From a virus, in the IMG/VR virus record IMGVR_UViG_3300010224_000005: 64,000 nt of DNA. One strand, written 5' to 3'. The translations under genes were made by a program, and so were the position numbers. Numbering within the stretch: the first letter of the stretch is position 1; every line of letters begins with the position of its first letter. The notes beneath the pieces were generated by a model. That model worked only from the letters and a program-made list of their open reading frames with translations, had not been told where the DNA came from and did no database searches. Below, piece by piece: positions 3,398 to 61,008 of this stretch.

Positions 3398-3900
3398 CCC
3401 GGACGGAGGCCCCCATGCCCGAACCCCTACCCGCCTTCGAGGCCCTCGCCGCGCCCGCACCGGCCATGCCGCCCGCCCGCCTGTGCGCAGCTTGCGGCGG
3501 TGAGGCCGTCGTGCACTGGCGGCGCCGGCCGACAGACGACGAACTGGCCGGCCTCGTAGCCGCAGAGCAGGCCCGCCGGGACGAGCGGCTCACGTTGGCC
3601 GACCCGCAGCTTCCGCCGCCGGTGTTCCCGCCGCTGCCGGCCGCCGACGACACCACGATCACCGTGTACTCGTGCGACCCCCACGCCATCGGCATGGAGA
3701 TGGCGGCTCGCGTCCATCAGGCCTCATGCGGGGCCCCCTTCGTGGGCGTGAACGGGAAATTGTTCCTCGACGCCGATGGCATCCCAGTATGTGACTGCAC
3801 GCCTGAGCCGCACCCGGATCCCGCGCCAGTCCCGGCGGAGAAGGCAGTCCGCATGGTGAGTCGACTGCCGGCGCACTGGCTGACTGCCGGAGACGCATGA
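3394..3900 (+). CDS. Hypothetical protein (Cys-containing)
   Basis: ATGA overlap with the fibre gene stop. In frame with ORF 3346..3900. Confidence 0.5.
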   Translation: MTRTEAPMPEPLPAFEALAAPAPAMPPARLCAACGGEAVVHWRRRPTDDELAGLVAAEQARRDERLTLADPQLPPPVFPPLPAADDTTITVYSCDPHAIGMEMAARVHQASCGAPFVGVNGKLFLDADGIPVCDCTPEPHPDPAPVPAEKAVRMVSRLPAHWLTAGDA

Positions 3901-10163: not shown

Positions 10164-12139
10164 CCCCTGCAGAGGACGAGTTCACCGAGCTCGTCGACGC
10201 CGACATCCCACGCGTGGACCTGGTCGACAAGGCCGCCAACGGCACGCGGTTCCTCATCGCCAAGAACGCCTCCGGCAGCGGACTGCTGGATCCAGCACTG
10301 GTCCGCGAACTCCTCGGCACCAGCGAACAGCCGCCCCCAGGCCCGGAGACGGTCACGATGACGGGCAGCCCCGCGGCGATCGCCAAGATGATCCACGACG
10401 CCGCCCTCCGCTCCCGCCAAGGCGACTCCGCAGTCACTGCGGCCGCCGAGCCCGCCGACGAACAGGTCCTCAAGGCCAAGTACGACGCCGACGACCTGCG
10501 CCGCATGGCCGCCAGCGGCCAGGCCATGAGGGACGAGTCCTACCCCATCGCCGACCACGAGGACCTCACCAGAGCAATCCGCGCAGTCGGACGCGGCGGC
10601 GCCGATCACGGCTCGATCCGTCGCCACATCATCGCCCGAGCCAAGGCGCTGGGCGCCGCAAGCGAGATCCCCGACAACTGGAACAGCGATGGGAGCCTGA
10701 CAGTGGCCAAGGCCATGGAACCCGACGACGGCACCGACGGCATGGACCCCACCGTCATCATGGCCGAGCCGGCTGGCACCGCGCCCGGCAACCCCACGAC
10801 CCCTGGCAGCCCGGCCTGGGAGGCCATCGACGCGGCCACCGCCAGGAAGTGGACCGGCATTCTTGCCCGCGCGAAGGCAGCCATCGACCTCCTCGCGGAC
10901 CGGGAAATGATGGAAGCCGCGTCCGGCGCCGACCCCGACGACGCCGACCAGGCCTACGACCTCCAGGACGCCTGCTGCGCCATCGACTACGCCATCTCGG
11001 TCCTGGCCCCATTCGCAGTCGCCGAGCAGGCCGAGGCCGACTGCGGCGAGGAGATGGCCGCCGTGGGCAAGGCCCTCGCCGGTTTCGACACGGCCCCGCT
11101 CGACACGATCGAGGCCCTCGCCAGCATCACCAAGGCCGGCCGCGTCCTGTCAGCCAGTAACGAGGCCGCCATTCGCGGCGCCGTCGAGCAGCTGACGAAG
11201 GTCCTCGCCAGCCTGCCGGCACCCATCAGCGACGAGGAGAGCGGCCGGCCGGTCGCCAAGACCGCCCACGAGGAGCCCGACATGCCCCAGCCCACCCCCA
11301 GCGACGAGGCCACCGAAGCGGCCGGCCAGGAGCCCGCGATGGGAGCCGCCGAGCCCACCCCGAAGCCGGTCGCGGGCCTCCCCGTCACCGCGCTCAAGGC
11401 CGCGGAGCACCACGTTCCCGCCAGCCTGGCCAAGGGACTCGAACCGGATACCGGGACCAGGGCGGTGGCCAAGGACGGCGACAAGGAGATGGTCGCCGTC
11501 TACGACGCCAAGGGAAAGCTCGTCGGCATCGTGGCCCCTGAGAAGATCACCCGCATCGCCGGCGCCGACTCCGACACCAGCGACGACACCCCGGCAGACA
11601 GTGCCGACGGCACCGGTGCTGCCGGGCCTGAGACCACCGACCTCCAGCCGGCCCCGGCCGCCGAGGTCGGAACCCCGGCCGACGCCGTCCCCGACGACGA
11701 CGTCACCAAGCAGACCACCAACCCGAGCGACACCACCCCGGATGCCGAGAGCAGCACCGCGGATGTGGCCAAGCGGCTCGACGACTACAGCGCCACCCAG
11801 GAGCAGGTCAACTCCGAGCAGAGCGAGAAGATCGCCAAGCAGGACGCGACGCTGAAGGAACTGGCGGAAGCCGTCGAACTACTGAAGGGCCAGGTCCGGG
11901 TGCTGGAGGAGCAGCCCGCCGTGCCGCACGTGTTCACCAACGGAGCCGTCCCGCCGCCGCACATGATGCGCGGCCAGGACAACGGCGCCCCGCCTGTAGA
12001 CGTCGCCAAGGCGCAGCAACTGAAGAAGCAGCTGTACCGCGGCCCGGACGCGGGCGAGCAGAACGCCATCCACGGACAGCTGAACGAGATGGCCATCGCC
12101 GCGCTCCAGAGCATCCACCAGGGCGGCGCCCGCCCGTAA
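10160..12139 (+). CDS. Scaffolding protein (long acidic/Pro-rich protein with C-terminal coiled coil)
   Basis: ATGA overlap with the previous gene. Position between the XkdF-like gene and the capsid gene. Low-complexity D/E/P/A regions and a helical C-terminus. Confidence 0.6.
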   Translation: MTPAEDEFTELVDADIPRVDLVDKAANGTRFLIAKNASGSGLLDPALVRELLGTSEQPPPGPETVTMTGSPAAIAKMIHDAALRSRQGDSAVTAAAEPADEQVLKAKYDADDLRRMAASGQAMRDESYPIADHEDLTRAIRAVGRGGADHGSIRRHIIARAKALGAASEIPDNWNSDGSLTVAKAMEPDDGTDGMDPTVIMAEPAGTAPGNPTTPGSPAWEAIDAATARKWTGILARAKAAIDLLADREMMEAASGADPDDADQAYDLQDACCAIDYAISVLAPFAVAEQAEADCGEEMAAVGKALAGFDTAPLDTIEALASITKAGRVLSASNEAAIRGAVEQLTKVLASLPAPISDEESGRPVAKTAHEEPDMPQPTPSDEATEAAGQEPAMGAAEPTPKPVAGLPVTALKAAEHHVPASLAKGLEPDTGTRAVAKDGDKEMVAVYDAKGKLVGIVAPEKITRIAGADSDTSDDTPADSADGTGAAGPETTDLQPAPAAEVGTPADAVPDDDVTKQTTNPSDTTPDAESSTADVAKRLDDYSATQEQVNSEQSEKIAKQDATLKELAEAVELLKGQVRVLEEQPAVPHVFTNGAVPPPHMMRGQDNGAPPVDVAKAQQLKKQLYRGPDAGEQNAIHGQLNEMAIAALQSIHQGGARP

Positions 12140-14152: not shown

Positions 14153-15010
14153 GTGGCCGCCAGCCCCTATGTGACAACGGCCGAATTCGAGGCGCACCCC
14201 ACGTACTTGGACCTGGACGACCTGCGTTCAGGCATCGAGGACCCCGACGCGCAGACGGCCGAGCTCCAGAACGTTCTACTGATGGCGTCCGGCTGGGCCG
14301 ACCGCCAGTGCAACGTCGGTCAGCTGGCCGCCCACCAGCTGACGCTGCACACGCGTGGCCGTTGCGACGCTCAGGGCGTGCTGAGCGTCTACCCCACGGA
14401 CCGGCCCGTCCTGTCCGTGTCCCAGGTGTCCTTCGGCGAGTCGTTCACCAGCACGACCACCGTCACGAACCCCTCCTACCGGGTCGACAAGGACCAGACG
14501 GTCTACCTGTCTATCGGCCGTGGCGTGGCGCGGCCGGGCGCCTGGCTGTACGTCGACATCACCTACATCGCCGGCTGGTCCTCCACCACCCTCGCGGCGG
14601 ACGCCACAGCCGGGGCGACCTCACTGAAGGTGGCCGACCCGACCGGAATCCTGCCCGGGCAGACATACCGGCTCTGGGACCCCGGCGCCGAGGAGAGCGT
14701 CACCGTCTCCCCGTCCTACACACCCGTAACCGTCACCACGCCACCCACGGCGACGTCGATCCCGCTCGCCGCCCCCACCACGGCCAACCACACGACCGGT
14801 GGTGGCTGGTCGGGGATGCACCCCGACATGAAGCTCGCGGTCATCAACTACGGCGTCTCCCAGCTGATGCGCCCGGACACTGCGGCCGAGGACTCCTACC
14901 CGGACACCGAACTCGCTGCCGGCACCCGGCAAAAGGACCCCCGCCGCGACGGCTCCGGTCTCGTCGCGGAAGCCGTACGCCTGCTCAGCCCGTTTGCGAG
15001 GCGCATGTGA
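14153..15010 (+). CDS. Head-tail connector/adaptor candidate
   Basis: N-terminus SPYVTTAEFEAH...LQNVLLMASGWADRQC resembles gp6-like connector N-termini. Gene position also fits. Confidence 0.45.
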   Translation: MAASPYVTTAEFEAHPTYLDLDDLRSGIEDPDAQTAELQNVLLMASGWADRQCNVGQLAAHQLTLHTRGRCDAQGVLSVYPTDRPVLSVSQVSFGESFTSTTTVTNPSYRVDKDQTVYLSIGRGVARPGAWLYVDITYIAGWSSTTLAADATAGATSLKVADPTGILPGQTYRLWDPGAEESVTVSPSYTPVTVTTPPTATSIPLAAPTTANHTTGGGWSGMHPDMKLAVINYGVSQLMRPDTAAEDSYPDTELAAGTRQKDPRRDGSGLVAEAVRLLSPFARRM

Positions 15011-25873: not shown

Positions 25874-26437
25874 GTGGCCCGCACTGTGCCATCCATCGCG
25901 ACCAAGAACCCCGGCGACTTCATCACCGGCGCCCTCTGGAACGCCCAGGTCGGCTCGATCATGCAGTGGCTCGTCGGCTCCGGCGGTAACGGTTTGCCGA
26001 TGTTCTTCGGTTACCAGGCGACTGCCCAGAGCGTCGCCTCAGGCACCACCGGCGCTGCCATCAGCATCGACACAGAGATCATCGACACCGACGGCGGGCA
26101 CTCCACCGTGTCCAACACCAGCAGATACACCTGCCAGGTCGCGGGCTACTACCTCGTCTGGGGCAGCGTCGCTTGGGCGACCAACGCCACCGAGGAACGC
26201 ATCACCTACTACCAGAAGAACGGCGCACTGATCGCCGGCGGATCGAGCGTGCAGGCCAACCCGGTCACCTCTGCCCACGCCTCGGTCATCCCCGGCAACA
26301 TCATGATCCTGCCCATGGCCGTAGGGGACTACTTCGAGGTGTGGGGATCCCAGGTCTCCGGCGGCAGCCTCTCCACCCAAGCCGACATCTCCAGCGGCAA
26401 GAACTGCACCATGCTCTGCGTCTGGATCCACGCCTGA
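25874..26437 (+). CDS. Tail fibre tip protein, C1q/TNF-like jelly-roll candidate
   Basis: GGAGGTG RBS. Pattern ..RYTCQVAGYYLVWGSV..YYQKNGALI..MAVGDYFEVWG.. is typical of C1q-like domains. Confidence 0.5.
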   Translation: MARTVPSIATKNPGDFITGALWNAQVGSIMQWLVGSGGNGLPMFFGYQATAQSVASGTTGAAISIDTEIIDTDGGHSTVSNTSRYTCQVAGYYLVWGSVAWATNATEERITYYQKNGALIAGGSSVQANPVTSAHASVIPGNIMILPMAVGDYFEVWGSQVSGGSLSTQADISSGKNCTMLCVWIHA

Positions 26438-26440
26438 ACC

Positions 26441-26627
26441 GTGACTCCGGACCCCGGTCTGCAACGGGTTCCGGAACCCGTTCCCGACGGTGATTCCGGA
26501 ACCGACGGATCCCGTTCCCGCCGGGGGTTCCGGACCCCGTTCTGCAACGGGGTCCGGAACCCCCATTTCGCCGGACCCCGTTCCACGACGGGTTCCGGAA
26601 CCCGTTCCCGTCGGGAGTTCCGCACTA
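26441..26627. repeat. Iteron-like repeat array A (noncoding), 8-9 units spaced about 19-25 bp
   Basis: Repeated GCAACGGG(G/T)TCCGGAACCCGTTCC-type units. Perfect 16-bp palindrome CGGGTTCCGGAACCCG at 26465-26480 and 26589-26604. Confidence 0.8.
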
Positions 26628-26991
26628 GTACCGGGCTGAGCAACCCCCACCCGTCGGCCCTGAAACCTACCGACGCCGCTCTCGTGCCCCCTCCCCTCCG
26701 GGTCTTTGAACTCAAGCCCAGCCCTCGACTTGCCCCTCCTCGGCCTGAGCCATAGAAAGCCCGCCACAGCGATAGCCGCGGACGGACGAGTCGGCGCGCG
26801 TATGCCACCGCAACCACATCCGGTCTCAGCCACGCTTCCTTGCTGTGAAGCCCCCCAACGCCCTTTTGCCGCCGACGTGGGCCGAGTGCCCCCGGCGGGG
26901 CACCGCAAGCCCCCCTGGGGGCTGAGGAGCTGCCGCCCCCATGCGCACCGGGCAGGCCACCGCCCCCCCTCTGACAAGCTCAGGAGGCCCC

Positions 26992-27462
26992 ATGGCATCC
27001 GATGTTCCCGCGGCCCTGCAGCAGTCGCTGCGGCACTTCCGTTACGCCCACCTGCCGCCCGTTCTGCGCGATGTGAGTAAGCCCTTCCACGACCTGGCCC
27101 ACAGCCTGGCGCGGAGCGTTTCAGGCCGAGAACTGACGCGGGCGCTTGACTACCTCTTCGACGCGAAGAACTGGGCCGTCGTCGCCGTCCTCTCCGGCCT
27201 TCCCGACGCCGACGCCACACAGCCGGCGTCGCTGGTGCCTCGAGTCGGAGACGTCGTCCTGGTCGCCGCCGATCCGGCTCTCAACAACGGTGCCGAGCAG
27301 GCGCCCGCGGTCGTCACCCGAGTGTGGTCCGCGACCACGGTCAACGTCCGCGTCCTGTACGACGGGCACGCGGTCACCTGGCATACCTCGCTGAACTACG
27401 TGGACACGCTCGACGGCCTCGCCCCTGACGCCCTCGCGTGGACGTGGCCGGAGGACATGTGA
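26992..27462 (+). CDS. Hypothetical protein, first gene of the lysis cassette
   Basis: AGGAGG RBS and ATG, in frame with ORF 26941..27462. Confidence 0.5.
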   Translation: MASDVPAALQQSLRHFRYAHLPPVLRDVSKPFHDLAHSLARSVSGRELTRALDYLFDAKNWAVVAVLSGLPDADATQPASLVPRVGDVVLVAADPALNNGAEQAPAVVTRVWSATTVNVRVLYDGHAVTWHTSLNYVDTLDGLAPDALAWTWPEDM

Positions 27463-28544
27463 TGAACACCTCCTGCCGCGGCATCGACGTCTCCGCCTAC
27501 CAGAGCCCCCAGGACTGGACGGCCTGGACCAAGCAGGGCGTCGTGTTCGCCTTCGCCAAGGCATCCGAAGGCACCAACACCCGGGACCCGCGCTTCGACG
27601 CGCACATCGCCGGCATCATCAAGGCCGGGCTGCTGCCCGGCGCCTACCACTTCGCGTGGCCCACCCAGTCGGCCGCAGCGGAAGCCGCGAACTACATCGC
27701 CGCCGTCGCCCCCTACGCCCGCAGCACCCCCTTCGTGCACTGGCTCGACCTCGAGCGCTACCCCGACGGCCGCAACTACACCGGCCGCACCAGCGCGCAG
27801 ATCCTCACCTGGGCCGAAGAGTGGCTCACTACGGTGCAGGCCGCGTTCCCCGCCCAGAGAGTCGGCGCCTACACCTCCGGCGACGACATCGCCGCCGGCC
27901 ACGTCCCGGACGGCATCCCGTTGTGGTTCCCGTCCTACCCGGGCGCCAGCGCAGACACCTACGCCGAGGCCCAGGCGGCCGTCCGGCCGAGGCCGTCCGG
28001 AAGGCTGCCGCTGCTGTGGCAGTTCACCTCCACTCCCGCGGACGGCTCCCGCACCGACGAGTCCATCGCCTACCTGTCCGAAGCCGGCCTGCGGGCCTGG
28101 GCCGCGGGCACCCCCCAGGAGGACGTCATGCCGGAAGAGGTCAACCTCGGCATCGCCAAGCCCTACACGCTCGCACCCGGGGCGTGGGACAGCATCGAGT
28201 TCACCAGCGAGTGGCTCGATACCGGCGACGAGCACGCGCCCGGCGGCAGCGTGTTCGCCCGCGGAGCCTGCCGGTTCACCGGCACCGTCAGCCTCCGCGT
28301 CCACGGGCTGCCCGCGGGCGAGACCGTGCAGGTCCGCATGTCCGAATACGCCGGGGACACCCTCGTCCACGACCACCCCATCGCCGAGGTCATCGGCACC
28401 AAGGGGGACGCGTTCGCCGTGGTGCCGCTGGTCAAGCACTGCCCGGCCGGCCACGGCATGCGGGTGAGGCTGCTGAACAACACCAGCCAGCCGGTCACCA
28501 TCACCACCGCGGTGCTCACCGCGCTGATCTGGAAACAGGCCTGA
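27462..28544 (+). CDS. Endolysin, glycoside hydrolase family 25 muramidase with an uncharacterised C-terminal domain
   Basis: GIDVSAYQSPQDW...FAFAKASEGTNTRDPRF...GAYHFAWP is the GH25 signature. TGATG overlap start. Confidence 0.85.
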   Translation: MNTSCRGIDVSAYQSPQDWTAWTKQGVVFAFAKASEGTNTRDPRFDAHIAGIIKAGLLPGAYHFAWPTQSAAAEAANYIAAVAPYARSTPFVHWLDLERYPDGRNYTGRTSAQILTWAEEWLTTVQAAFPAQRVGAYTSGDDIAAGHVPDGIPLWFPSYPGASADTYAEAQAAVRPRPSGRLPLLWQFTSTPADGSRTDESIAYLSEAGLRAWAAGTPQEDVMPEEVNLGIAKPYTLAPGAWDSIEFTSEWLDTGDEHAPGGSVFARGACRFTGTVSLRVHGLPAGETVQVRMSEYAGDTLVHDHPIAEVIGTKGDAFAVVPLVKHCPAGHGMRVRLLNNTSQPVTITTAVLTALIWKQA

Positions 28545-34489: not shown

Positions 34490-35668
34490 ATGGATGAGCC
34501 GATCAAAGAGATCACGCTCCGCAACGGCAAGAAGCGCTACCGGTTCGTCCTCGACGTCGGCCGCCGACCGGACGGCGGCCGACGACAGCTCACCGTCACC
34601 AAGAACACGCTCAAGGAAGCGCGCGCCGAGTACGGCCGGCTCCTGACCGCGAAGAACTCCGGCACGCTGATCGTCCCCAACAAGATCACCGTCGAGCAGT
34701 GGATCGAGGAGTGGCTCAAGCTCAAGGCGGAAGACGTCGAGGTCACCACCCTCAACTCGTACGTCACCACGCTAAAGCCGGCCAGGAAACGGCTCGGGCA
34801 CATCCGCCTCCAGGAGCTCACCGAAGAGGACGTAGTCGCCTGGGTGAAGTGGCTGCTCACCGAAGGGCGCGTGCGCCCCCGGCAGGGGAACAAGGGGCTG
34901 TCGACGACGTCCGCGGACATGGCCCTCGGCCGCCTGAAGGAAGTCCTGAACAGAGCCGTCACGAAGCGCCTGGTCGGCCTGAATGTCGCCGCCGAGGTGT
35001 CCATCCCGAGCAAGGCGCGGCGGGCAGACCGCAAGGCGCGGCCCCGGGTGAAGCCGTGGAACAGCGCGGAGGTACGGGCTTTCGTGGCGGGTATCCGGGA
35101 GGAGCGGCTGTTCGCTGCGTTCCTGCTCAGCCTCATGGGACTGCGGCCCGCGGAAGTCTGCGGGCTGCGCTGGAGCGACATCGACTTCGCGGAGCGCATC
35201 CTCGTGGTCGACAACACCCGAACGATGATCAACAACAACGAGGTCGTCGAGAAGGACACCAAGTCGGCCTCCAGCGACCGCGACCTCCCCCTTCCGACGC
35301 TCTTGTTCGACGCATTGAAGAAGTTCCGGGCTCTCCAGGCCGCGGAGAAGCTTGCGCTCGGCCAGGACTACCTCGAGTCCGGCTACGTCCTGGTCGACGA
35401 GATGGGCCAGCCGCTGAACGTGCGCCTGCTGCGGGTCGAGGCGAAGAAGCTGATGGACAAGCTGGGCATGCGCAAGGTGCGCCTGTACGACGCGCGGGCC
35501 TCGTGTCTGACGTTCCTGGCGAACGAGGGAGTGCCGCGGCACATCCTGGCCCGCTGGGCCGGCCACGGCAATCCGAAGACGACCGAGCGCTTCTACCTGA
35601 AGCCCGACGTCGAGGATCTGCGGGGTGCGGCAGAGAGTTGGGGCGGCCTCGGCGGAGGGCCTTCGTGA
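34490..35668 (+). CDS. int: Tyrosine recombinase (phage integrase family)
   Basis: SAM-like N-terminal domain plus catalytic region GLRPAEVCGLRW, LYDARASCLTFL and ARWAGHGNPKTTERFYL (R..R..H..Y). Confidence 0.9.
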   Translation: MDEPIKEITLRNGKKRYRFVLDVGRRPDGGRRQLTVTKNTLKEARAEYGRLLTAKNSGTLIVPNKITVEQWIEEWLKLKAEDVEVTTLNSYVTTLKPARKRLGHIRLQELTEEDVVAWVKWLLTEGRVRPRQGNKGLSTTSADMALGRLKEVLNRAVTKRLVGLNVAAEVSIPSKARRADRKARPRVKPWNSAEVRAFVAGIREERLFAAFLLSLMGLRPAEVCGLRWSDIDFAERILVVDNTRTMINNNEVVEKDTKSASSDRDLPLPTLLFDALKKFRALQAAEKLALGQDYLESGYVLVDEMGQPLNVRLLRVEAKKLMDKLGMRKVRLYDARASCLTFLANEGVPRHILARWAGHGNPKTTERFYLKPDVEDLRGAAESWGGLGGGPS

Positions 35669-35934
35669 GAGATTGTGAGACGAGCCCTCACCGCGCAGTC
35701 CGGGCACACAGCGGCAACCTGGCGGCAATCGCCGCGCTGAGCTGCGGACGAAGGGGGTCGGGAGCGGTCGGCGGGGACGTGCTGGGACCACATCTTCACG
35801 ACACGGACTAAGTCATCAAAGCCTTCCGCCCAGGTTCCATATCTTCCGGCAGACGGCTACCGGTGCTGGTCAGGGGGGATGCTTCCCTTCCTCGCCGGAC
35901 GGTCCGTGAGATCTGTGTGAGACAACCGTGAGAC
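35665..35934 (+). other. Candidate attP: two clusters of direct GTGAGA(C/G/T) arm-type repeats flanking a lower-GC core
   Basis: GTGAGAN at 35665, 35675, 35906, 35917 and 35928, all in the same orientation and spaced 10-11 bp. The central 35682-35905 includes AT-richer stretches (aagtcatcaaagcc, ttccatatcttcc). Confidence 0.5.
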
Positions 35935-36016
35935 CGCGCCCCAGGGGCAGGGCGCGGCCGGACGCGCGGGAGCCGCCCTTCCGCAAAAGCGGGGGGCGGC
36001 TCCCGTCGCGTTGCGT

Positions 36017-36043
36017 CAACGTCTTCCACCGCAGAAGACGTTG
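36017..36043. terminator. Stem-loop between attP and the leftward immunity operon
   Basis: CAACGTCTTC-CACCGCA-GAAGACGTTG. A second inverted repeat GGGAGCCGCCC...GGGCGGCTCCC lies at about 35969-36004. Confidence 0.55.
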
Positions 36044-36047
36044 AGAA

Positions 36048-36665
36048 TCATGACGTATCGATTCGCCGTAGCGGAGGCGACGGCTCCGGCGTCATGACGC
36101 CGATGTCCTCGATGCGTTCGTGGCCGTGCGACAGCCCTGCGTCCCTTGTGCCGCCGCCGGCGACGCGCAGCCGGCCGTAGCCCCGCGGCGTGGCCTGCTC
36201 GAACTGGCCGCGCGTGGCCACCAGCTCGTTGAGGATCAGCTGGTTGCGCTCGTCGTTGACCTCGCTCACTTCCTGCTCGAGCTCGGCGATCCTCGTGCGC
36301 AGCGCCGCGAGGGTGTTGCGTGTCTCGTCGAGGGCCTTCGCTGAGCTGGCCGCGCGGAACTGCATGGCGGCTCGCTGGCGCTTGAGAGCCTCCTCCCGCC
36401 GGAACAGTTGGTGTTCCCGCTGCTGCATCGCCAGGTCGTTGCGGCGCTGCAGCTCGCTGATCTCCTGGAGCTGAGCCCGCGTGCGCGCGTCGAAAGCCCT
36501 GAGCGCATACCGCACGGTCGCTGCCACGACGCCGACGGCCCCGGCCGCCAGTGCCCCCATGCCGCTGACCGCGACCTCCCAGGAGTGGCTCCACACTCCA
36601 TCGCCGACGAGTGCCCCGCCGGCCACACACGCGCCGATCGACACGGTCGTCAATCTGTACGCCAC
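36048..36665 (-). CDS. Membrane protein with two N-terminal TM helices and a long coiled coil (candidate superinfection exclusion/abortive infection)
   Basis: TM segments VSIGACVAGGALVG and GMGALAAGAVGVVAATV, then heptad-like ELQRRNDLAMQQREHQLFRREEALKRQR.... Co-oriented with and downstream of the repressor gene. Confidence 0.6.
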   Translation of the reverse strand: MAYRLTTVSIGACVAGGALVGDGVWSHSWEVAVSGMGALAAGAVGVVAATVRYALRAFDARTRAQLQEISELQRRNDLAMQQREHQLFRREEALKRQRAAMQFRAASSAKALDETRNTLAALRTRIAELEQEVSEVNDERNQLILNELVATRGQFEQATPRGYGRLRVAGGGTRDAGLSHGHERIEDIGVMTPEPSPPLRRIDTS

Positions 36666-36668
36666 CTG

Positions 36669-37145
36669 CTACCCCCTTGCTGTAGCCCCCCGGTCGGCAG
36701 CGTCGATCTCACGCTGGAGCTGGATCGCCTGGCCGATGTTGCCGTTGAGCATCTTGCGGATCTTGGGATCGGTGATCCCCCACGCGTCCATTGCTGCATC
36801 TGGGGTGAGTGCGGCAGAGGCTACCTCCTCCTTTGGGCCGCCTGAGCCCTTTTTGGGAGGAAGCAGCCCGGACTCGATGAGCAGCTCGTCGTGGTTGATA
36901 CCGAGAACTGATGCCCAGGCGGTGAGCTGGCCGGGCAATGGGAGGGTTTTGCCCTCCAGGGTCCGGCTGACCGTTGTGATGCTCACCCCGAGCCGCTGTG
37001 CCAGCTGGGCGCGTCCGCCCGCTCGCTGGCGGACGTCGAAGCCAGCGGTCGTGGCGCGCTCGGTGAGGTAAGCACCGACGCGCGCCGCGAGGACCTGGCG
37101 TTCCTCACGTGTCTTGCCGTGGGGGGGATCTTCCATGCTCCGCAT
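36669..37145 (-). CDS. CI-like repressor candidate (HTH)
   Basis: GRAQLAQRLGVSITTVSRTLEGK HTH. Divergent from the Cro-like gene across a repeat-rich 240-bp region. Confidence 0.65.
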   Translation of the reverse strand: MRSMEDPPHGKTREERQVLAARVGAYLTERATTAGFDVRQRAGGRAQLAQRLGVSITTVSRTLEGKTLPLPGQLTAWASVLGINHDELLIESGLLPPKKGSGGPKEEVASAALTPDAAMDAWGITDPKIRKMLNGNIGQAIQLQREIDAADRGATARG

Positions 37146-37384: not shown

Positions 37385-37660
37385 ATGCTCCGCCTCGACA
37401 TGGCCAAGGTCCGGAAAAGGGCCAGGTCAAAGGGTGCCGAGTCCATCCCGGACATCGCCGAGAAGAGCGGCGTCAGCGAGGCCACGCTCTACCGCCTGGC
37501 CTCCCGGGACATGGAGCCGAGCCTCACCACCGCATGGAGGCTCGCCGCCTTCCTCGGCGCCCGCATCGAGTCCATCGTCCACGAAGACCCGCAGGCCACG
37601 CGCCGCACCAGCGTGCCCCGCCCGCGGAAACCGGCCGCCGCCGGACGCCGCGCCACCTGA
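37385..37660 (+). CDS. Cro-like XRE-family HTH protein
   Basis: IPDIAEKSGVSEATLYRLASRDMEPSLTTAWRLAAFLG. First gene of the rightward early operon. Confidence 0.7.
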   Translation: MLRLDMAKVRKRARSKGAESIPDIAEKSGVSEATLYRLASRDMEPSLTTAWRLAAFLGARIESIVHEDPQATRRTSVPRPRKPAAAGRRAT

Positions 37661-42390: not shown

Positions 42391-43416
42391 GTGACCGTCA
42401 GCGAGCCGGTGCAGGTCCCCAGGACGGCGTGGATGAACGCTTTGCGGGACGAAGCACTGCGGATGAACCGCCCTGAGATCTCGCGCGTCGTGCACGTCGG
42501 CTGGGTCATCGCCTCCTTCACCGACGACGACGGCACCAACGCCGACCCGAAGACCGAGACCATCGCGGCCATCGTCGGCTGCAGCGACGAAACCGTGGCC
42601 CGGGCCAAGAAGGTCCTCAAAGCCCTCGGCGTCCTCGCCGAGAAACGGCGCCCGAACGCCAACTCCGCATACCGGCTGCAGTTCACGAACCTCGGCGATC
42701 TCGACTGGGACGCCCACATGCACCTGTACACGGACACACCACAGGCCCGGCGCAAGAAGCGCATCAAGGAGCAGGAGATCGCCGAGCACGTGGCGAAGCG
42801 GGAGGAGGAGCTCACCGGGCGCCGGACCCCGTCGCGCAACGGGGTCCGGAACCCGTTCCCGCCGGGGGTTCCCGACGGCGAGGAGGGGTCCGGAACCCGT
42901 TCCGCAACGGGTTCCGGACCCCGTGCGGAACGCGGCCCCGACCCCGTCTCGGACAGGGAGGAGACGGCGGGGCCGGCGCTCGCGCCCGTGCCCGCACCCG
43001 CCGGCCGCCCACGGCGGCCGGCGGGTGCGGCCGCAGCGTCGACTCAGCCGCCCCTGCTGCTTGCCGTCCCCGGCCAGGACCCGCTCACCACCGGCACCAT
43101 CCGCCCCACACCACCTGGCAGCCCGCACAGCCGGCACGGCCCCACCGAACTGAGCGTGCCCTGCGGCTACTGCGAGGCCCCCGCCGGAGCACGGTGCCGC
43201 AACACCGTCGGGCTCCGCGGAACCGCCCACCAGGCTCGCCTGGAGGCATGGACGCTCGCCCACACCGGCTGCCCCGACTGCCGGGCCCCCGCCGACAACC
43301 CCTGCACCGGCCCGGACGGCATCCCGCACACCGGCATCCACCCGGCCCGCGCCGAGCTCGGCGCCCGGATGCGGGCGACGGCCGCCCAGCAGCAGGACCG
43401 CCACACCGGAACCTGA
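42391..43416 (+). CDS. HTH (winged-helix) replication-initiator-like protein with two C-terminal Zn-finger repeats and an internal iteron array
   Basis: N-terminal TETIAAIVGCSDETVARAKKVLKALGVLAE HTH. C-terminal CGYCEAPAGARC...HQAR and CPDCRAPADNPC...HPAR. The DNA at 42821-42948 carries iterons. Confidence 0.6.
   Translation: MTVSEPVQVPRTAWMNALRDEALRMNRPEISRVVHVGWVIASFTDDDGTNADPKTETIAAIVGCSDETVARAKKVLKALGVLAEKRRPNANSAYRLQFTNLGDLDWDAHMHLYTDTPQARRKKRIKEQEIAEHVAKREEELTGRRTPSRNGVRNPFPPGVPDGEEGSGTRSATGSGPRAERGPDPVSDREETAGPALAPVPAPAGRPRRPAGAAAASTQPPLLLAVPGQDPLTTGTIRPTPPGSPHSRHGPTELSVPCGYCEAPAGARCRNTVGLRGTAHQARLEAWTLAHTGCPDCRAPADNPCTGPDGIPHTGIHPARAELGARMRATAAQQQDRHTGT
42821..42948. repeat. Iteron-like repeat array B, inside the linker-coding part of 42391..43416
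   Basis: Same unit family as array A, e.g. GCAACGGGGTCCGGAACCCGTTCCCGCCGGGGGTTCC is shared almost verbatim with 26543-26560 and 26508-26530. Units are spaced 21-23 bp. Confidence 0.8.
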
Positions 43417-43436: not shown

Positions 43437-43748
43437 ATGACTTCCCGCGCTGAACGCCGGCATCCCGAACTCGAGCAGCGCTGCGCCTGGTGCCACGCCG
43501 CACCCGGCAGCGCCTGCACCAACCGCCACAACAACCCGCGCACGACCCCCCACCCCAGCCGCAAGGACGCCTGGATCCTGGCCCACTTCGACTGCCCCAC
43601 CTGCGGGGCCCCGGCCGGTACGGCGTGCACGGTCGCCGAGGGCGGGGCGATGCCCGGCGTTCACACGGAGCGCGCGCAGGCCGCGGCCGCCGCGTATGAG
43701 GAGGCCCTCGAGGAGTCGTCGCGGGATGTGAAGGGACGGCCCCGGTGA
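43437..43748 (+). CDS. Zn-finger protein, paralogous to the C-terminus of 42391..43416
   Basis: CAWCHAAPGSAC...HPSR and CPTCGAPAGTAC...HTER repeats. Confidence 0.6.
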   Translation: MTSRAERRHPELEQRCAWCHAAPGSACTNRHNNPRTTPHPSRKDAWILAHFDCPTCGAPAGTACTVAEGGAMPGVHTERAQAAAAAYEEALEESSRDVKGRPR

Positions 43749-59164: not shown

Positions 59165-59327
59165 GGGGCGCCCGGTGCGCAGGCAGGTGGTACTTCTCCT
59201 GCTAAGAGAGAGACCCGGGTTCGAATCCCGGCCGATGCTGCTGAAGATCCCTCGGGGTCTGAGGCTCGGTAGCTCAGCGGCCCAGAGCGCTTCGTCCCAT
59301 CCGCCGACCTTGATCTCGGGCGCCCCA
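59165..59327 (+). ncRNA. Y-RNA-like module 3 with a permuted tRNA-like domain (YrlA-type, longer acceptor-like arm)
   Basis: GGGGCGCCCGGTGCGCAGGC...GCCGACCTTGATCTCGGGCGCCCC. T-arm CCGGG-TTCGAAT-CCCGG and D-arm GCTC-AGCGGCCCA-GAGC. Confidence 0.7.
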
Positions 59328-59364
59328 CTGCTTGCGCTTCCCCTCCACAGCGAGGGGCTTTCCC

Positions 59365-61008
59365 ATGGCTAGGTTCAACCAGCGCGGCACGCGGCCGACA
59401 GCCGTATCCCCGGTCACCACGACCGGCGAGACGGCCCGCACCCACGAGGGCGGCGTCGGCCATCTCCGCGATGCACGCTCCGAGCTCTACCTGCTCGCGG
59501 TGTCGAACATGGTCGGCACCGACACCTTCTACGAGGACGGCAACGGCCGCGACGACCGCTACGAGCGACTCGTGCGCCAGCTCGCTGTCGAGGACCCGGA
59601 GTGGTCCGCGGGCCTCCTCGGCTGGCTGCGTGGCGAGGGCAACATGCGCACCGCGGCGATCGTCGGCGCCGCGGAGTTTGTCAAGGCACGGCTGGACGCT
59701 GGGCCGGAGTCACTGCGGAACTACGGCACCACTGGTCTGAACCGGAAGGTCGTCGCCTCCGTCCTCCAGCGACCCGACGAGCCCGGCGAGTTGCTGGCCT
59801 ACTGGACGTCGCGGTACGGGCGCCGGATTCCGAAGCCGGTGAAGCGCGGCATCGAGGACGCGCTCGGAGAGCTGTACACCGAACGCTCGCTGCTGAAGTA
59901 CGACACCGACAGCAAGGGCTTCCGCTTCGGCGACGTCATCGAACTCGTCCACCCGGCCCCGTCCGCGCTCTGGCAGGGCGACCTTTTCGAGCACGCCATC
60001 GACCGCCGCCACAACCGGGATAAGCCGATCCCCGAGTCGCTGCAGCTCCTGCACACCCGCGCGGAGATCGCGAAGTGGGACGTCGAGAAGCGGCGCGCGC
60101 TCCTGGCGCGGCCGGATGCCGCGGACTTCCTGAAGCACGCCGGCATGACGTGGGAGGCACTGGCCGGCTGGCTACAGGGCCCGATGGACAAGACCGCATG
60201 GGAAGCGGCCATCCCGTCCATGGGCTACATGGCCCTCCTCAGGAACCTCCGCAACTTCGACCAGGCTGGTGTCTCGGACGAGGTCGCCGAGACCGTGGCC
60301 CGGAAGCTCGCGGACCCGGAGCAGGTCGCGCGGTCCCGTCAGCTGCCGATGCGGTTCTACTCGGCGTACCGCGCGGCCCCGTCGCTGCGGTGGGGACATG
60401 CGCTGGAGAAGGCGCTCACGCTGTCCCTGGACAACATCCCGGCGCTGCCGGGCCGGACGCTGGTTCTGGTGGACACGTCGTCGTCGATGGAGGACACGTT
60501 CTCGAAGGACGGCACGCTCATGCGGTGGGATGCCGCAGCGCTGTTCGGCATCGCGCTCGGGCAGCGGTGCGCGCAGGCGGACGTGGTGTCGTTCTCGTCG
60601 AGCCGCTACTACATGAGTGACCCGCCCGGCGCGAAGACAAAGGCGTTCCCGCTGCAGCGCGGCGAGTCCGTACTGCGCGCGGTCGGCAGGTGGAAGGACG
60701 GCGGCTGGTTCCTCGGTGGCGGCACAGACACGGCACTCGCCCTCCGCCAGGAATTCAAGGCGCATGACCGGGTCGTCATCGTCACGGACGAGCAGGCCGG
60801 CCACGACCTCACCGAAGTAGACCGGTCCATCCCGCAGACGACCCCCATGTACACCTGGAACCTCGCCGGATACGAAGCCGGACACGCCCCCTCCGGCAAA
60901 AGCCAGCGACACACCTTCGGAGGACTCACCGACGCGGCCTTCCGCACGATCCCGCTCCTCGAAGCAGGCCAGCACACATCGTGGCCCTGGACCACCCCCG
61001 TAGCCTGA
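59365..61008 (+). CDS. rsr: Ro60-related protein (TROVE domain plus vWA domain)
   Basis: N-terminal TROVE-like region (HEGGVGHLRDARSELYLLAVSNMVGTDTFYEDG...EWSAGLLGWLRGEGNMRTAAIVGAAEF). C-terminal vWA with MIDAS LVLVDTSSSMED. Immediately downstream of the Y-RNA-like modules. Confidence 0.85.
   Translation: MARFNQRGTRPTAVSPVTTTGETARTHEGGVGHLRDARSELYLLAVSNMVGTDTFYEDGNGRDDRYERLVRQLAVEDPEWSAGLLGWLRGEGNMRTAAIVGAAEFVKARLDAGPESLRNYGTTGLNRKVVASVLQRPDEPGELLAYWTSRYGRRIPKPVKRGIEDALGELYTERSLLKYDTDSKGFRFGDVIELVHPAPSALWQGDLFEHAIDRRHNRDKPIPESLQLLHTRAEIAKWDVEKRRALLARPDAADFLKHAGMTWEALAGWLQGPMDKTAWEAAIPSMGYMALLRNLRNFDQAGVSDEVAETVARKLADPEQVARSRQLPMRFYSAYRAAPSLRWGHALEKALTLSLDNIPALPGRTLVLVDTSSSMEDTFSKDGTLMRWDAAALFGIALGQRCAQADVVSFSSSRYYMSDPPGAKTKAFPLQRGESVLRAVGRWKDGGWFLGGGTDTALALRQEFKAHDRVVIVTDEQAGHDLTEVDRSIPQTTPMYTWNLAGYEAGHAPSGKSQRHTFGGLTDAAFRTIPLLEAGQHTSWPWTTPVA

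What the first reader, a model, noticed from the sequence alone, without database searches (positions are those of the whole stretch)
26441..26627. Iteron-like repeat array in a noncoding gap between the tail and lysis genes, homologous to a second array inside the initiator-like gene 16 kb away
Seen in sequence: 8-9 units of the family GCAACGGG(G/T)TCCGGA(A/C)CCCGTTCC, spaced about 19-25 bp (about two helical turns). They include two copies of the perfect 16-bp palindrome CGGGTTCCGGAACCCG (26465-26480 and 26589-26604). Stretches such as CCGGACCCCGTTCTGCAACGGGGTCCGGAACCC and GGATCCCGTTCCCGCCGGGGGTTCC recur almost verbatim at 42821-42875. Scanning the ORF track for the tell-tale GSGT/FRNP translations showed only these two loci.

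Inference: both arrays are binding sites for one phage DNA-binding protein. Array A is outside any gene and far from the replication genes. It could therefore be a second origin, a partition/centromere-like or handcuffing site, or a late-operon control element. I do not recognise this arrangement as a described actinophage element.
Basis: partly seen in the sequence, partly recalled or inferred. Interest (0 to 1): 0.7.

Follow-up and report, generated by a model that had tools for sequence, protein, structure and literature searches.

The report
Second phage replication-origin repeat array
A noncoding block of six 24-bp repeats between the tail and lysis genes of a Streptomyces temperate phage is most likely a second copy of the phage's replication origin, matching the repeats inside its initiator gene, much as Bacillus phage SPP1 has oriL and oriR.

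Summary
Array A (26446-26621) and array B (42824-42938) hold 13 of the 14 window matches to the repeat core, against about 2 expected by chance.

The unit is a 24-25 bp dyad iteron, GGAMCCCGT-N6-ACGGGKTCC. A has three abutting pairs and B has two.

B lies in the linker of an initiator-like protein with an HTH_36 winged-helix N-terminus and a PF24623 zinc-finger C-terminus, as in lambda ori/O and SPP1 oriL/gene 38.

Relatives are roughly 90-kb Streptomyces prophages, and A and B are nearly complementary among them:
- Four prophages whose intact initiator gene lost B all carry A.
- Three prophages without A have full B arrays of 7-8 iterons.
- Two, including this window, have A plus a shortened B.
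- None has neither.

B was lost at three or more separate points in a rough initiator tree, by different deletions. A is an insertion/deletion difference between homologous flanks and occurs with two lysis cassette types. A and many B arrays share a downstream CCTCAGCCACAG motif.

Best reading (confidence 0.58): A is an extragenic initiator-binding origin, like SPP1 oriR. It is a new member of a known kind, not found described for actinophages. No binding or replication data exist.

The parts
26446..26621 (.). Array A. Six 24-25 bp dyad iterons (26449-26472, 26473-26497, 26507-26531, 26532-26555, 26573-26596, 26597-26621) in three abutting pairs, plus two partial half-sites at about 26497-26505 and 26556-26564.
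   Evidence: Conserved in register in L137, L139, L140, L141 and L142. Iteron maps of L173, L174 and L239 show the same organisation.
26622..26650 (+). Conserved junction GCACTAGTACCGGGCTGAGCAACCCCCAC directly after the last iteron. It contains TGGCTGAG, the inverted partner of the CTCAGCCA motif further downstream.
   Evidence: Present only in loci that carry array A, with 0-3 mismatches; alignment.
26651..26940 (.). Rest of the roughly 500-nt noncoding insert that always accompanies array A.
   Evidence: No GC3 coding signal. Partly conserved among A-carrying loci. Absent from loci without A that have homologous flanks.
26744..26836 (.). Conserved element of about 95 nt, bounded by CCTGAGCCATAG and GGTCTCAGCCACGC. 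In relatives the first motif reads CCTCAGCCACAG. Its orientation is flipped in L140, L141 and L173.
   Evidence: No covariation supports an RNA fold.
42824..42938 (.). Array B. Four iterons of the same family (42824-42847, 42848-42872, 42892-42915, 42916-42938) in two abutting pairs, inside the linker of the initiator-like gene. It is shortened relative to the 7-8 iteron arrays of relatives.
   Evidence: protein alignment.
42391..43416 (+). Initiator-like gene. The product has an N-terminal winged-helix domain (HTH_36, residues 37-80), a linker that contains array B, and a C-terminal PF24623 zinc-finger domain.
   Evidence: Pfam HTH_36 at 28.1 bits (cut-off 25) and PF24623 at E 5e-12. PHROG replication-initiation and O-like families at E 7e-6 to 2e-4. 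Weak PDB profile hits to RepA_N initiators at E 0.009.
43437..43748 (+). Adjacent small gene encoding a PF24623 zinc-finger protein, a paralogue of the initiator's C-terminal domain.
   Evidence: E 2.6e-16. The gene pair is conserved in relatives.
25874..26437 (+). Last tail or virion gene upstream of array A.
   Evidence: PHROG virion structural and tail spike families; GC3 frame signal.
26941..27462 (+). First ORF downstream of the noncoding insert, of unknown function. It precedes the GH25 endolysin gene at 27438-28544.
   Evidence: phrog_1761 at E 6e-19 and endolysin Glyco_hydro_25 at E 2e-28.

Best explanation
Array A is an extragenic cluster of replication-initiator binding sites (iterons). 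It is effectively a second copy of the phage origin, placed in a roughly 500-nt noncoding insert between the tail and lysis genes.

Proposed mechanism:
- Dimers of the initiator-like protein encoded at 42391-43416 bind each 24-bp dyad iteron. This protein has an HTH_36 winged-helix N-terminus and a zinc-finger C-terminus.
- The resulting nucleoprotein complex recruits the host replisome. No phage helicase, primase or polymerase was recognised among the ten right-arm ORFs scanned.
- The complex forms at A as it does at the ancestral origin, array B, which lies inside the initiator gene.

In this phage both arrays are present, but B is shortened to 4 iterons and has lost the segment that follows the array in relatives. 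A may therefore be the main origin here. Alternatively, the two may work together as proposed for SPP1 oriL and oriR.

Shown: the anatomy, the conservation, the distribution among relatives and the shared flanking motif.
Inferred: which protein binds, and that replication starts at A.
For: 1. The same iteron family fills the same linker position of homologous initiator genes. This holds in L001, L004, L007, L056, L131, L133, L177, L178, L271 and L272, and, read from the translated signature RNPFPPGVPEPVPAGG / GTRSGTG, in most of P0002-P0024. This is the lambda O / SPP1 gene 38 layout.

2. A more distant initiator subfamily carries a different repeat in the same linker, translated as PDSVRG, PDSVHG or PEGVRG. 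The repeat sequence therefore tracks the protein.

3. Array A is conserved at the same junction in nine related loci (L137, L139-L142, L173, L174, L239 and the window). Left half-sites are almost invariant while spacers vary. One lineage shows a symmetric T-to-G / A-to-C change that keeps the dyad.

4. A and B have a complementary distribution:
- A present, B absent in four: S. prunicolor (L132 + L173, 71 kb apart on one contig), S. griseorubiginosus (P0012 + L174), NPDC088794 (P0015/L169 + L140) and IMG contig 2657245709 (L176 + L239).
- A absent, B present in three, with 7-8 iterons where the DNA was read (two of them): S. anandii, S. bauhiniae and NPDC003656.
- Both present in two: the window and S. 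cylindrosporus, whose B has two good iterons plus one weak match.
- Neither present: none.
- Array A is rare overall: 5 of 34 tail loci that could be scored in genomes and 1 of 80 in IMG/VR.

5. Initiators that lost B are intact, with a conserved winged-helix domain. No other tandem repeat array lies within 10 kb of their genes.

6. B was lost by different deletions at three or more separate points in a rough neighbour-joining tree.

7. CCTCAGCCACAG lies 48-68 nt after the last B iteron in the four of six relatives where I read the offset, and about 125-137 nt after A (inverted in three loci). It is otherwise rare in these loci.

8. A is an insertion/deletion difference between homologous flanks and occurs with two lysis cassette types.

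9. A precedent exists: SPP1 oriL lies inside the initiator gene and oriR is intergenic among late genes, and gp38 binds both (PMC5737612, PMC6316719).
Against: - There is no direct evidence of protein binding or of replication initiation.
- The initiator assignment rests on modest HMM scores (HTH_36 28 bits against a cut-off of 25; PHROG E about 1e-5; PDB RepA_N E 0.009).
- No clear AT-rich unwinding element adjoins array A in the window. The lowest-GC 30-mers lie in the tail gene, not after the array.
- The tally covers only nine prophages that share ancestry. A plain Fisher test on the 2x2 table (my hand calculation) gives one-sided p of about 0.12.
- Two of the four A-present, B-absent pairings rest on matching contig length, not on checked coordinates.
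- GC skew is uninformative.
- In SPP1, the best-studied analogue, oriR has not been shown to fire in vivo and is thought to act as a fork barrier.
- The strong fold of the array leaves room for a transcript-level role as well.
Confidence: 0.58

Rival explanations
1. Array A binds the initiator but is not an origin. It could be a replication-fork barrier that triggers the switch from theta to sigma (concatemer) replication, as proposed for SPP1 oriR. It could also be a titration or pairing (handcuffing) site that modulates firing at B.
For: A has the same iterons as B in the window. The SPP1 model has gp38 bound at oriR stalling forks (PMC3485210, PMC6316719). No obvious AT-rich unwinding element lies next to A.
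Against: Four prophages have A but no B, and no other repeat array lies near the initiator gene in the two checked. Three prophages do without A, so a barrier is not needed by phages that have only B. Handcuffing is a plasmid copy-control device, whereas these elements integrate.
Confidence: 0.17
2. Array A is an operator cluster that controls the downstream lysis genes or the end of the tail operon. The binding protein would be the initiator acting as a regulator, the PF24623 zinc-finger protein, or another phage regulator.
For: Its position between the tail and lysis genes. A conserved noncoding stretch lies downstream. A phage ECF sigma factor and several HTH genes are encoded in the early region of relatives.
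Against: A occurs with two unrelated lysis cassettes, and both cassette types also exist without A. Regulation does not explain why B decays only where A is present. No sigma-70-type promoter was found. The 95-nt element next to A flips orientation relative to the lysis genes.
Confidence: 0.1
3. Array A acts at the RNA level, as a stack of GC-rich hairpins that terminates or stabilises the tail-operon transcript. On this view its likeness to B is incidental or due to a shared repeat family.
For: A starts 4 nt after the tail-gene stop codon. The RNA fold is -115.6 kcal/mol with z = -6.6. Streptomyces terminators often lack U tracts (my own knowledge, not tested here).
Against: Half-site sequence is conserved far beyond what base pairing needs. 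The degenerate right halves pair poorly yet are conserved as sequence. The same units lie inside a coding region in the linker of a DNA-binding protein. No terminator-like site was found in the array and no Rfam family reached its gathering score. The complementary distribution with B is left unexplained.
Confidence: 0.08
4. Array A is a functionless leftover, either a recombination scar copied from an origin or a small mobile repeat.
For: A sits at a mosaic junction and is an insertion/deletion difference relative to related phages. Short-read contigs may break in these repeats, since several homologues are truncated there.
Against: The iterons are kept in register and nearly unchanged in nine loci whose flanking genes are only 65-77% identical. 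No terminal inverted repeats or target duplications were noticed. No other copies exist in the window.
Confidence: 0.05

Closest known systems
Bacillus subtilis phage SPP1 oriL / oriR with origin-binding protein gp38 (G38P)
   Same: There are two clusters of the same repeats. One is embedded in the initiator's own gene. The other lies in a noncoding insert that interrupts the late (virion and lysis) gene block, 12-13 kb away in SPP1 and 16 kb away here. In SPP1 both are bound by the one initiator (PMC5737612, PMC6316719, PMC3485210).
   Different: - The initiator here shows no detectable sequence relation to G38P (pfam09524). It has HTH_36 plus a PF24623 zinc finger.
- No phage helicase or loader was recognised.
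- The host is a 70% GC Streptomyces, and the phage is temperate and roughly 90 kb.
- No clear AT-rich unwinding element lies next to A.
- Relatives show the extragenic array standing alone after loss of the intragenic one, which is not reported for SPP1.
Lambda ori inside gene O (lambdoid phages)
   Same: Dyad-symmetric iterons (four in lambda, four in window array B) lie in the linker between the N-terminal DNA-binding domain and the C-terminal domain of the initiator. Repeat sequence co-varies with initiator type (textbook knowledge; here).
   Different: Lambda has a single origin and no second distant array. Pfam scans returned only HTH_36, PF24623 and a weak HTH_Crp_2 match. Only weak PHROG 'O-like' hits were found.
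Satellite phage P4 ori and crr, bound by the alpha protein
   Same: Two separated clusters of the same initiator-binding repeats sit on one phage genome, several kb apart (from my own knowledge, not checked here).
   Different: In P4 the crr cluster is required in cis together with ori. Here either array can be absent. The initiator type also differs (P4 alpha is a primase-helicase).
Plasmid-prophage P1 oriR / incA and other iteron plasmids
   Same: An extra iteron array lies outside the origin and binds the same initiator (from my own knowledge).
   Different: Those arrays control plasmid copy number by titration or handcuffing. This phage family integrates through a tyrosine integrase.

Membership tests
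Iteron origin embedded in the initiator gene (lambda ori/O, SPP1 oriL/gene 38 type); applies to array B | Three or more repeats of about 19-25 bp inside the initiator ORF, between its DNA-binding domain and its C-terminal domain | tested here: met
   Four 24-bp iterons at 42824-42938, after the HTH_36 domain (residues 37-80) and before the zinc-finger domain (residues 246-335). Relatives whose array DNA was mapped have 5-8 iterons (S. cylindrosporus only two to three) at the same place.
Iteron origin embedded in the initiator gene (lambda ori/O, SPP1 oriL/gene 38 type); applies to array B | The host gene encodes a replication initiator | tested here: inconclusive
   HTH_36 at 28.1 bits (cut-off 25). 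PHROG replication-initiation and O-like families at E 7e-6 to 2e-4. PDB profile hits to RepA_N initiators at E 0.009, but CAP-type HTH hits score equally. Pfam returned only HTH_36, PF24623 and a weak HTH_Crp_2 match.
Iteron origin embedded in the initiator gene (lambda ori/O, SPP1 oriL/gene 38 type); applies to array B | An AT-rich DNA unwinding element next to the repeats | tested here: inconclusive
   Window B has no low-GC stretch after the array. In relatives with full B arrays, the lowest-GC 30-mers of the region (50-57% against 70%) mostly lie just after the last iteron.
SPP1-type dual origin (oriL + oriR) | Two clusters of the same repeat family, one inside the initiator gene and one noncoding among the late genes | tested here: met
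   A lies between the last tail gene and the lysis genes; B lies inside 42391-43416.
SPP1-type dual origin (oriL + oriR) | Both clusters bound by the one origin-binding protein | not testable with these tools
   Needs EMSA, footprinting or ChIP. Indirect support: identical half-sites, and the complementary distribution of A and B.
SPP1-type dual origin (oriL + oriR) | The extragenic cluster has its own AT-rich unwinding element | tested here: not met
   In the window the 30-mers after A are 63% GC or more. Only a 9-nt ACTAGTAC patch is present. L173 has AGGTAATAAAC at that spot.
SPP1-type dual origin (oriL + oriR) | Initiator homologous to G38P | tested here: not met
   Pfam scans of 14 family members returned only HTH_36, PF24623 and HTH_Crp_2. 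The resemblance is in how it works, not in ancestry.
Plasmid copy-control iteron array (P1 incA type) | The element is maintained as a plasmid with partition functions | tested here: not met
   A tyrosine integrase lies at 34490-35668. Relatives sit in chromosomes flanked by host genes. No ParA or ParB was seen in the ORFs scanned, though the scan was not exhaustive.
Intrinsic terminator | A GC-rich hairpin followed by a U tract | tested here: not met
   No terminator-like site was found in 26438-26640. Hairpins are plentiful but no T run follows.
Known structured RNA (Rfam 15) | A match at the family's gathering score | tested here: not met
   Only sub-threshold hairpin and miRNA look-alikes, at most 31.5 bits against gathering scores of 52-128.

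The most novel reading that the evidence does not exclude
The iteron block, together with its TGGCTGA / CCTCAGCCACAG flank, is a portable origin cassette. In this Streptomyces prophage family the origin has moved out of the initiator gene to a distant intergenic site. The old intragenic copy is then free to decay, and it has done so repeatedly and independently. The window would be a transitional genome with both copies, and A would be a true firing origin rather than only a fork barrier. That would be natural evidence, missing for SPP1 oriR, that an extragenic late-region array can be the sole origin of a tailed phage.
Probability: 0.35. Interest if true: 0.6.

Novelty: new member of a known kind. 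Interest (0 to 1): 0.45.

Why it matters
- It gives a concrete, testable origin map for a large family of roughly 90-kb Streptomyces prophages. No close relative exists among sequenced phage isolates.
- It extends the SPP1 two-origin layout to an unrelated initiator family in a high-GC host.
- The set of related genomes, with both arrays, A only or B only, offers a way to ask what a second origin is for. That question is still open for SPP1 oriR.
- If A works as an origin, A plus the initiator gene could be the basis of a small replicon for Streptomyces vectors.
- The repeats may also break short-read assemblies, since several homologues are truncated within the array. That would matter for prophage annotation.

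Tried and rejected
Searches that found nothing useful:
- Megablast of the region, and tblastn of the initiator and of the 1147-aa tail protein, against 50,697 phage records. The results were no hit or only distant N-terminal hits, so no annotated relative was available.
- A single-protein locus search for the initiator in IMG/VR found nothing.
- A wide-gap two-unit DNA pattern in IMG/VR returned mostly chance or unrelated coding repeats.
- A profile search with the initiator N-terminal domain returned only 10 truncated proteins. It was useless for pairing A and B status, though it did show a different repeat in a sister subfamily.

Ideas tested and dropped:
- A known RNA family or tRNA at array A: none.
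- A sigma-70 promoter or intrinsic terminator in the array: none.
- An ECF-sigma promoter reading of GGAAC...CGTT: rejected by eye because the spacing does not fit 16-18 nt.
- The 95-nt conserved element as a structured RNA: no compensatory pairs on either strand.
- GC skew as an origin marker: monotonic and uninformative.
- The motif cluster in L226: a coding acidic repeat, so a false positive.
- A as a decayed copy of the initiator gene: BLAST similarity between the A region and other loci is limited to the repeats and the noncoding flank.

Full report
**Setting**

The window is 70% GC. It reads as a temperate siphovirus-type genome in non-integrated gene order:
- Structural and tail genes run to 26437.
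- A GH25 endolysin lies at 27438-28544 and a tyrosine integrase at 34490-35668.
- A divergent pair of small ORFs follows (36669-37145 on the minus strand, 37385-37660 on the plus strand), then a long rightward early region. In relatives the syntenic genes are HTH regulators.

Nothing similar exists among 50,697 deposited phage genomes. Homologues of its proteins are found only in prophages of Streptomyces, Kitasatospora and related genera, and in metagenomes. In integrated relatives the initiator gene and the tail gene lie 56-71 kb apart on the same contig. The element is therefore roughly 90 kb, and the window is only part of it.

The repeat core is confined to two loci and is far above chance. 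There are 14 matches against 1.9 expected, eight in 26446-26607 and five in 42837-42926. A is noncoding: it starts 4 nt after the tail-gene stop, and no frame has a GC3 signal until 26941.

**Anatomy**

The unit is best described as a 24-25 bp iteron with dyad symmetry, GGAMCCCGT-N6-(A/C)CGGGKTCC.
- The left half-site is almost invariant.
- The right half is either a good mirror image or a degenerate CGGGGGTTCC form.
- Iterons come in abutting pairs, and the TTCC|GGAA joint creates the "perfect palindromes".
- A has six iterons in three pairs plus two partial half-sites. B has four iterons in two pairs.

**Array B is a gene-embedded origin of the lambda / SPP1 oriL type**

- B lies in the linker of a 341-aa protein. 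That protein has an N-terminal winged helix (Pfam HTH_36, just above its cut-off). It also gives weak PHROG hits to replication-initiation and O-like families, and weak PDB profile hits to RepA_N initiators.
- Its C-terminus is a PF24623 zinc-finger domain, and the next gene encodes a second copy of that domain.
- The same iterons occupy the same linker in homologues that are only 40-59% identical. This is seen directly in DNA (L001, L004, L007, L056, L131, L133, L177, L178, L271, L272). It is also seen as a conserved translated signature (RNPFPPGVPEPVPAGG, GTRSGTG, ERVPEPVPAGG) in most of P0002-P0024.
- A sister subfamily with a different winged-helix sequence has a different translated repeat at that position (PDSVRG, PDSVHG or PEGVRG). 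That is the expected pattern when the repeats are the protein's own binding sites.
- None of the ten right-arm ORFs I scanned matched a phage helicase, primase or polymerase family, so the host replisome is probably recruited.

**Array A in relatives**

A profile of the 1147-aa tail protein retrieved 35 genome loci and 80 IMG/VR loci, each with up to 10 kb of flanking sequence.
- The same iteron array sits at the same junction in L137, L139, L140, L141, L142 and L239. It is also there in L173 and L174, which were fetched by exact protein look-up.
- Iterons align in register, half-sites are preserved and spacers vary. One lineage (S. doudnae, L142/L239) shows a symmetric change to GGAACCCGG...CCGGGTTCC.
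- A is always followed by GCACTAGTACCTGGCTGAGCAACCCCCAC or a variant of it, then about 300 nt of partly conserved noncoding DNA.
- A is rare overall: 5 of 34 genome loci that could be scored and 1 of 80 IMG/VR loci.

**The key result: A and B are nearly complementary**

| A status | B status | Prophages | Evidence |
|---|---|---|---|
| present | absent | S. prunicolor | P0007/L132 with L173, 71 kb apart on one contig |
| present | absent | IMG contig 2657245709 | L176 with L239, same contig |
| absent | present | S. anandii, S. bauhiniae, NPDC003656 | tail gene followed within 100 nt by the lysis cassette; 7-8 iterons in the two whose DNA I read (L272, L271); |
| present | present, shortened | this window, S. 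cylindrosporus | window B has 4 iterons; S. cylindrosporus B has two good iterons plus one weak match (L131 + L139) |
| absent | absent | none | |

Further points:
- The initiators that lost B are full length, with a conserved winged helix and zinc finger.
- No alternative tandem repeat array lies within 10 kb of the two such genes I checked.
- The linker deletions differ from lineage to lineage.
- B-less initiators fall at three or more separate places in a rough neighbour-joining tree. B therefore seems to have decayed repeatedly, each time in a genome that has A.

**Two further links between A and B**

- The 12-mer CCTCAGCCACAG lies 48-68 nt after the last iteron of B in the four relatives where I read the offset, and downstream of the array in two more. 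An inverted TGGCTGA sits a few nt upstream of it.
- The same 12-mer lies about 125-137 nt after A, and TGGCTGAG directly abuts A. In three A loci the 95-nt piece carrying the 12-mer is inverted. The motif is otherwise rare in these loci.
- A is an insertion/deletion difference between homologous flanks. It occurs with both a GH25 lysis cassette and a different 292-aa lysin cassette, and each cassette also exists without A. This argues against A being a control element tied to one lysis module.

**Interpretation**

The simplest account is that A is a second, extragenic set of initiator-binding iterons that can do the job of the intragenic origin. The published precedent is SPP1. There, oriL lies inside initiator gene 38 and oriR lies in a noncoding insert among late genes. 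Gp38 binds both with similar affinity (PMC5737612, PMC6316719). For SPP1, oriR-bound gp38 is proposed to stall forks and trigger the theta-to-sigma switch (PMC3485210).

That barrier role remains a rival here, but it does not explain prophages that have A alone. RNA-level roles also cannot be excluded as side functions. The array folds strongly (z = -6.6). However, there is no U-tract terminator and no Rfam family, and half-site conservation exceeds what base pairing requires.

**Limits**

- There are no binding or replication data.
- The initiator assignment rests on modest scores.
- No clear AT-rich unwinding element lies next to A in the window.
- The tally covers nine related prophages. 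My hand-calculated Fisher one-sided p is about 0.12. The stronger argument is that all B-loss lineages have an otherwise rare feature.
- Two of the pairings rest on matching contig length only.
- GC skew is uninformative.

**Verdict**

The feature is real and conserved. Most likely it is an SPP1-oriR-like second origin in a Streptomyces prophage family that has an unrelated initiator. It is a new member of a known kind, and the comparative pattern is a useful lead. My one full-text search on Streptomyces phage iterons found no description in actinophages.

Noticed in passing
window 26744-26836; also L139 about 14386-14490, L174 about 14381-14490, and inverted in L140, L141 and L173: A conserved noncoding element of about 95 nt lies downstream of array A. 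It is bounded by CCTCAGCCACAG and GGTCTCAGCCACGC and has an invariant GGCGCGCGTRTG core. Its orientation is flipped in three of eight relatives. RNAalifold found no compensatory pairs on either strand.
   Followed up: partly
L001 about 568-596, L056 about 764-792, L177 about 10588-10615, L272 about 3644-3672: Downstream of the initiator-gene iteron arrays there is a small inverted repeat, TGGCTGA-N8-9-TCAGCCA, followed by GCGCGCG. It is conserved at the DNA level across divergent initiators and could be a second protein-binding site or part of the origin.
   Followed up: partly
window 43437-43748 and 42391-43416 (C-terminal residues about 246-335): The PF24623 'phage zinc finger' domain occurs twice in tandem genes, once fused to the initiator and once as a free-standing 103-aa protein. 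The gene pair is conserved in all relatives examined.
   Followed up: partly
window 52097-52891, 59167-59241 and 59332-61008; relatives L131-L133: There is an apparent RNA-repair module. It comprises an RNA ligase (phrog_14301), a tRNA-Ser(GCT) gene and a 558-aa 'RNA-binding protein' (phrog_850). Relatives add a T4-type RNA ligase, a PNKP-like kinase/phosphatase and Thg1. This may counter host tRNA-cleaving defences.
   Followed up: no
L131 3911-4522, L132 5018-5614, L169 5792-6388 (early regions of relatives); the window equivalent, near 37.7-38.4 kb, was not scanned: An ECF-type sigma factor gene lies in the early operon of relatives, just after the divergent HTH pair. It may drive late transcription.
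   Followed up: no
window 34490-36665: The gene order is integrase, then a gap of about 380 nt (probably attP), then leftward genes. In relatives the syntenic leftward genes directly abut host genes. The window is therefore in the excised or virion configuration, not an integrated prophage.
   Followed up: partly
P0145-P0152; L136 and L181 (S. prunicolor NBRC 13075): Many database homologues of the initiator are 'partial' proteins that end inside the repeat region. One genome contig ends 567-613 nt after the tail protein, close to where array A would be. The arrays may break short-read assemblies.
   Followed up: no
L161 (Kitasatospora sp. CMC57 plasmid pCMC57_01, 97,860 bp): A homologue of the tail protein lies on a 98-kb record annotated as a plasmid. 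This hints that some members of this phage group persist as plasmid-prophages. No iteron cluster was seen within 10 kb of the tail gene there.
   Followed up: no
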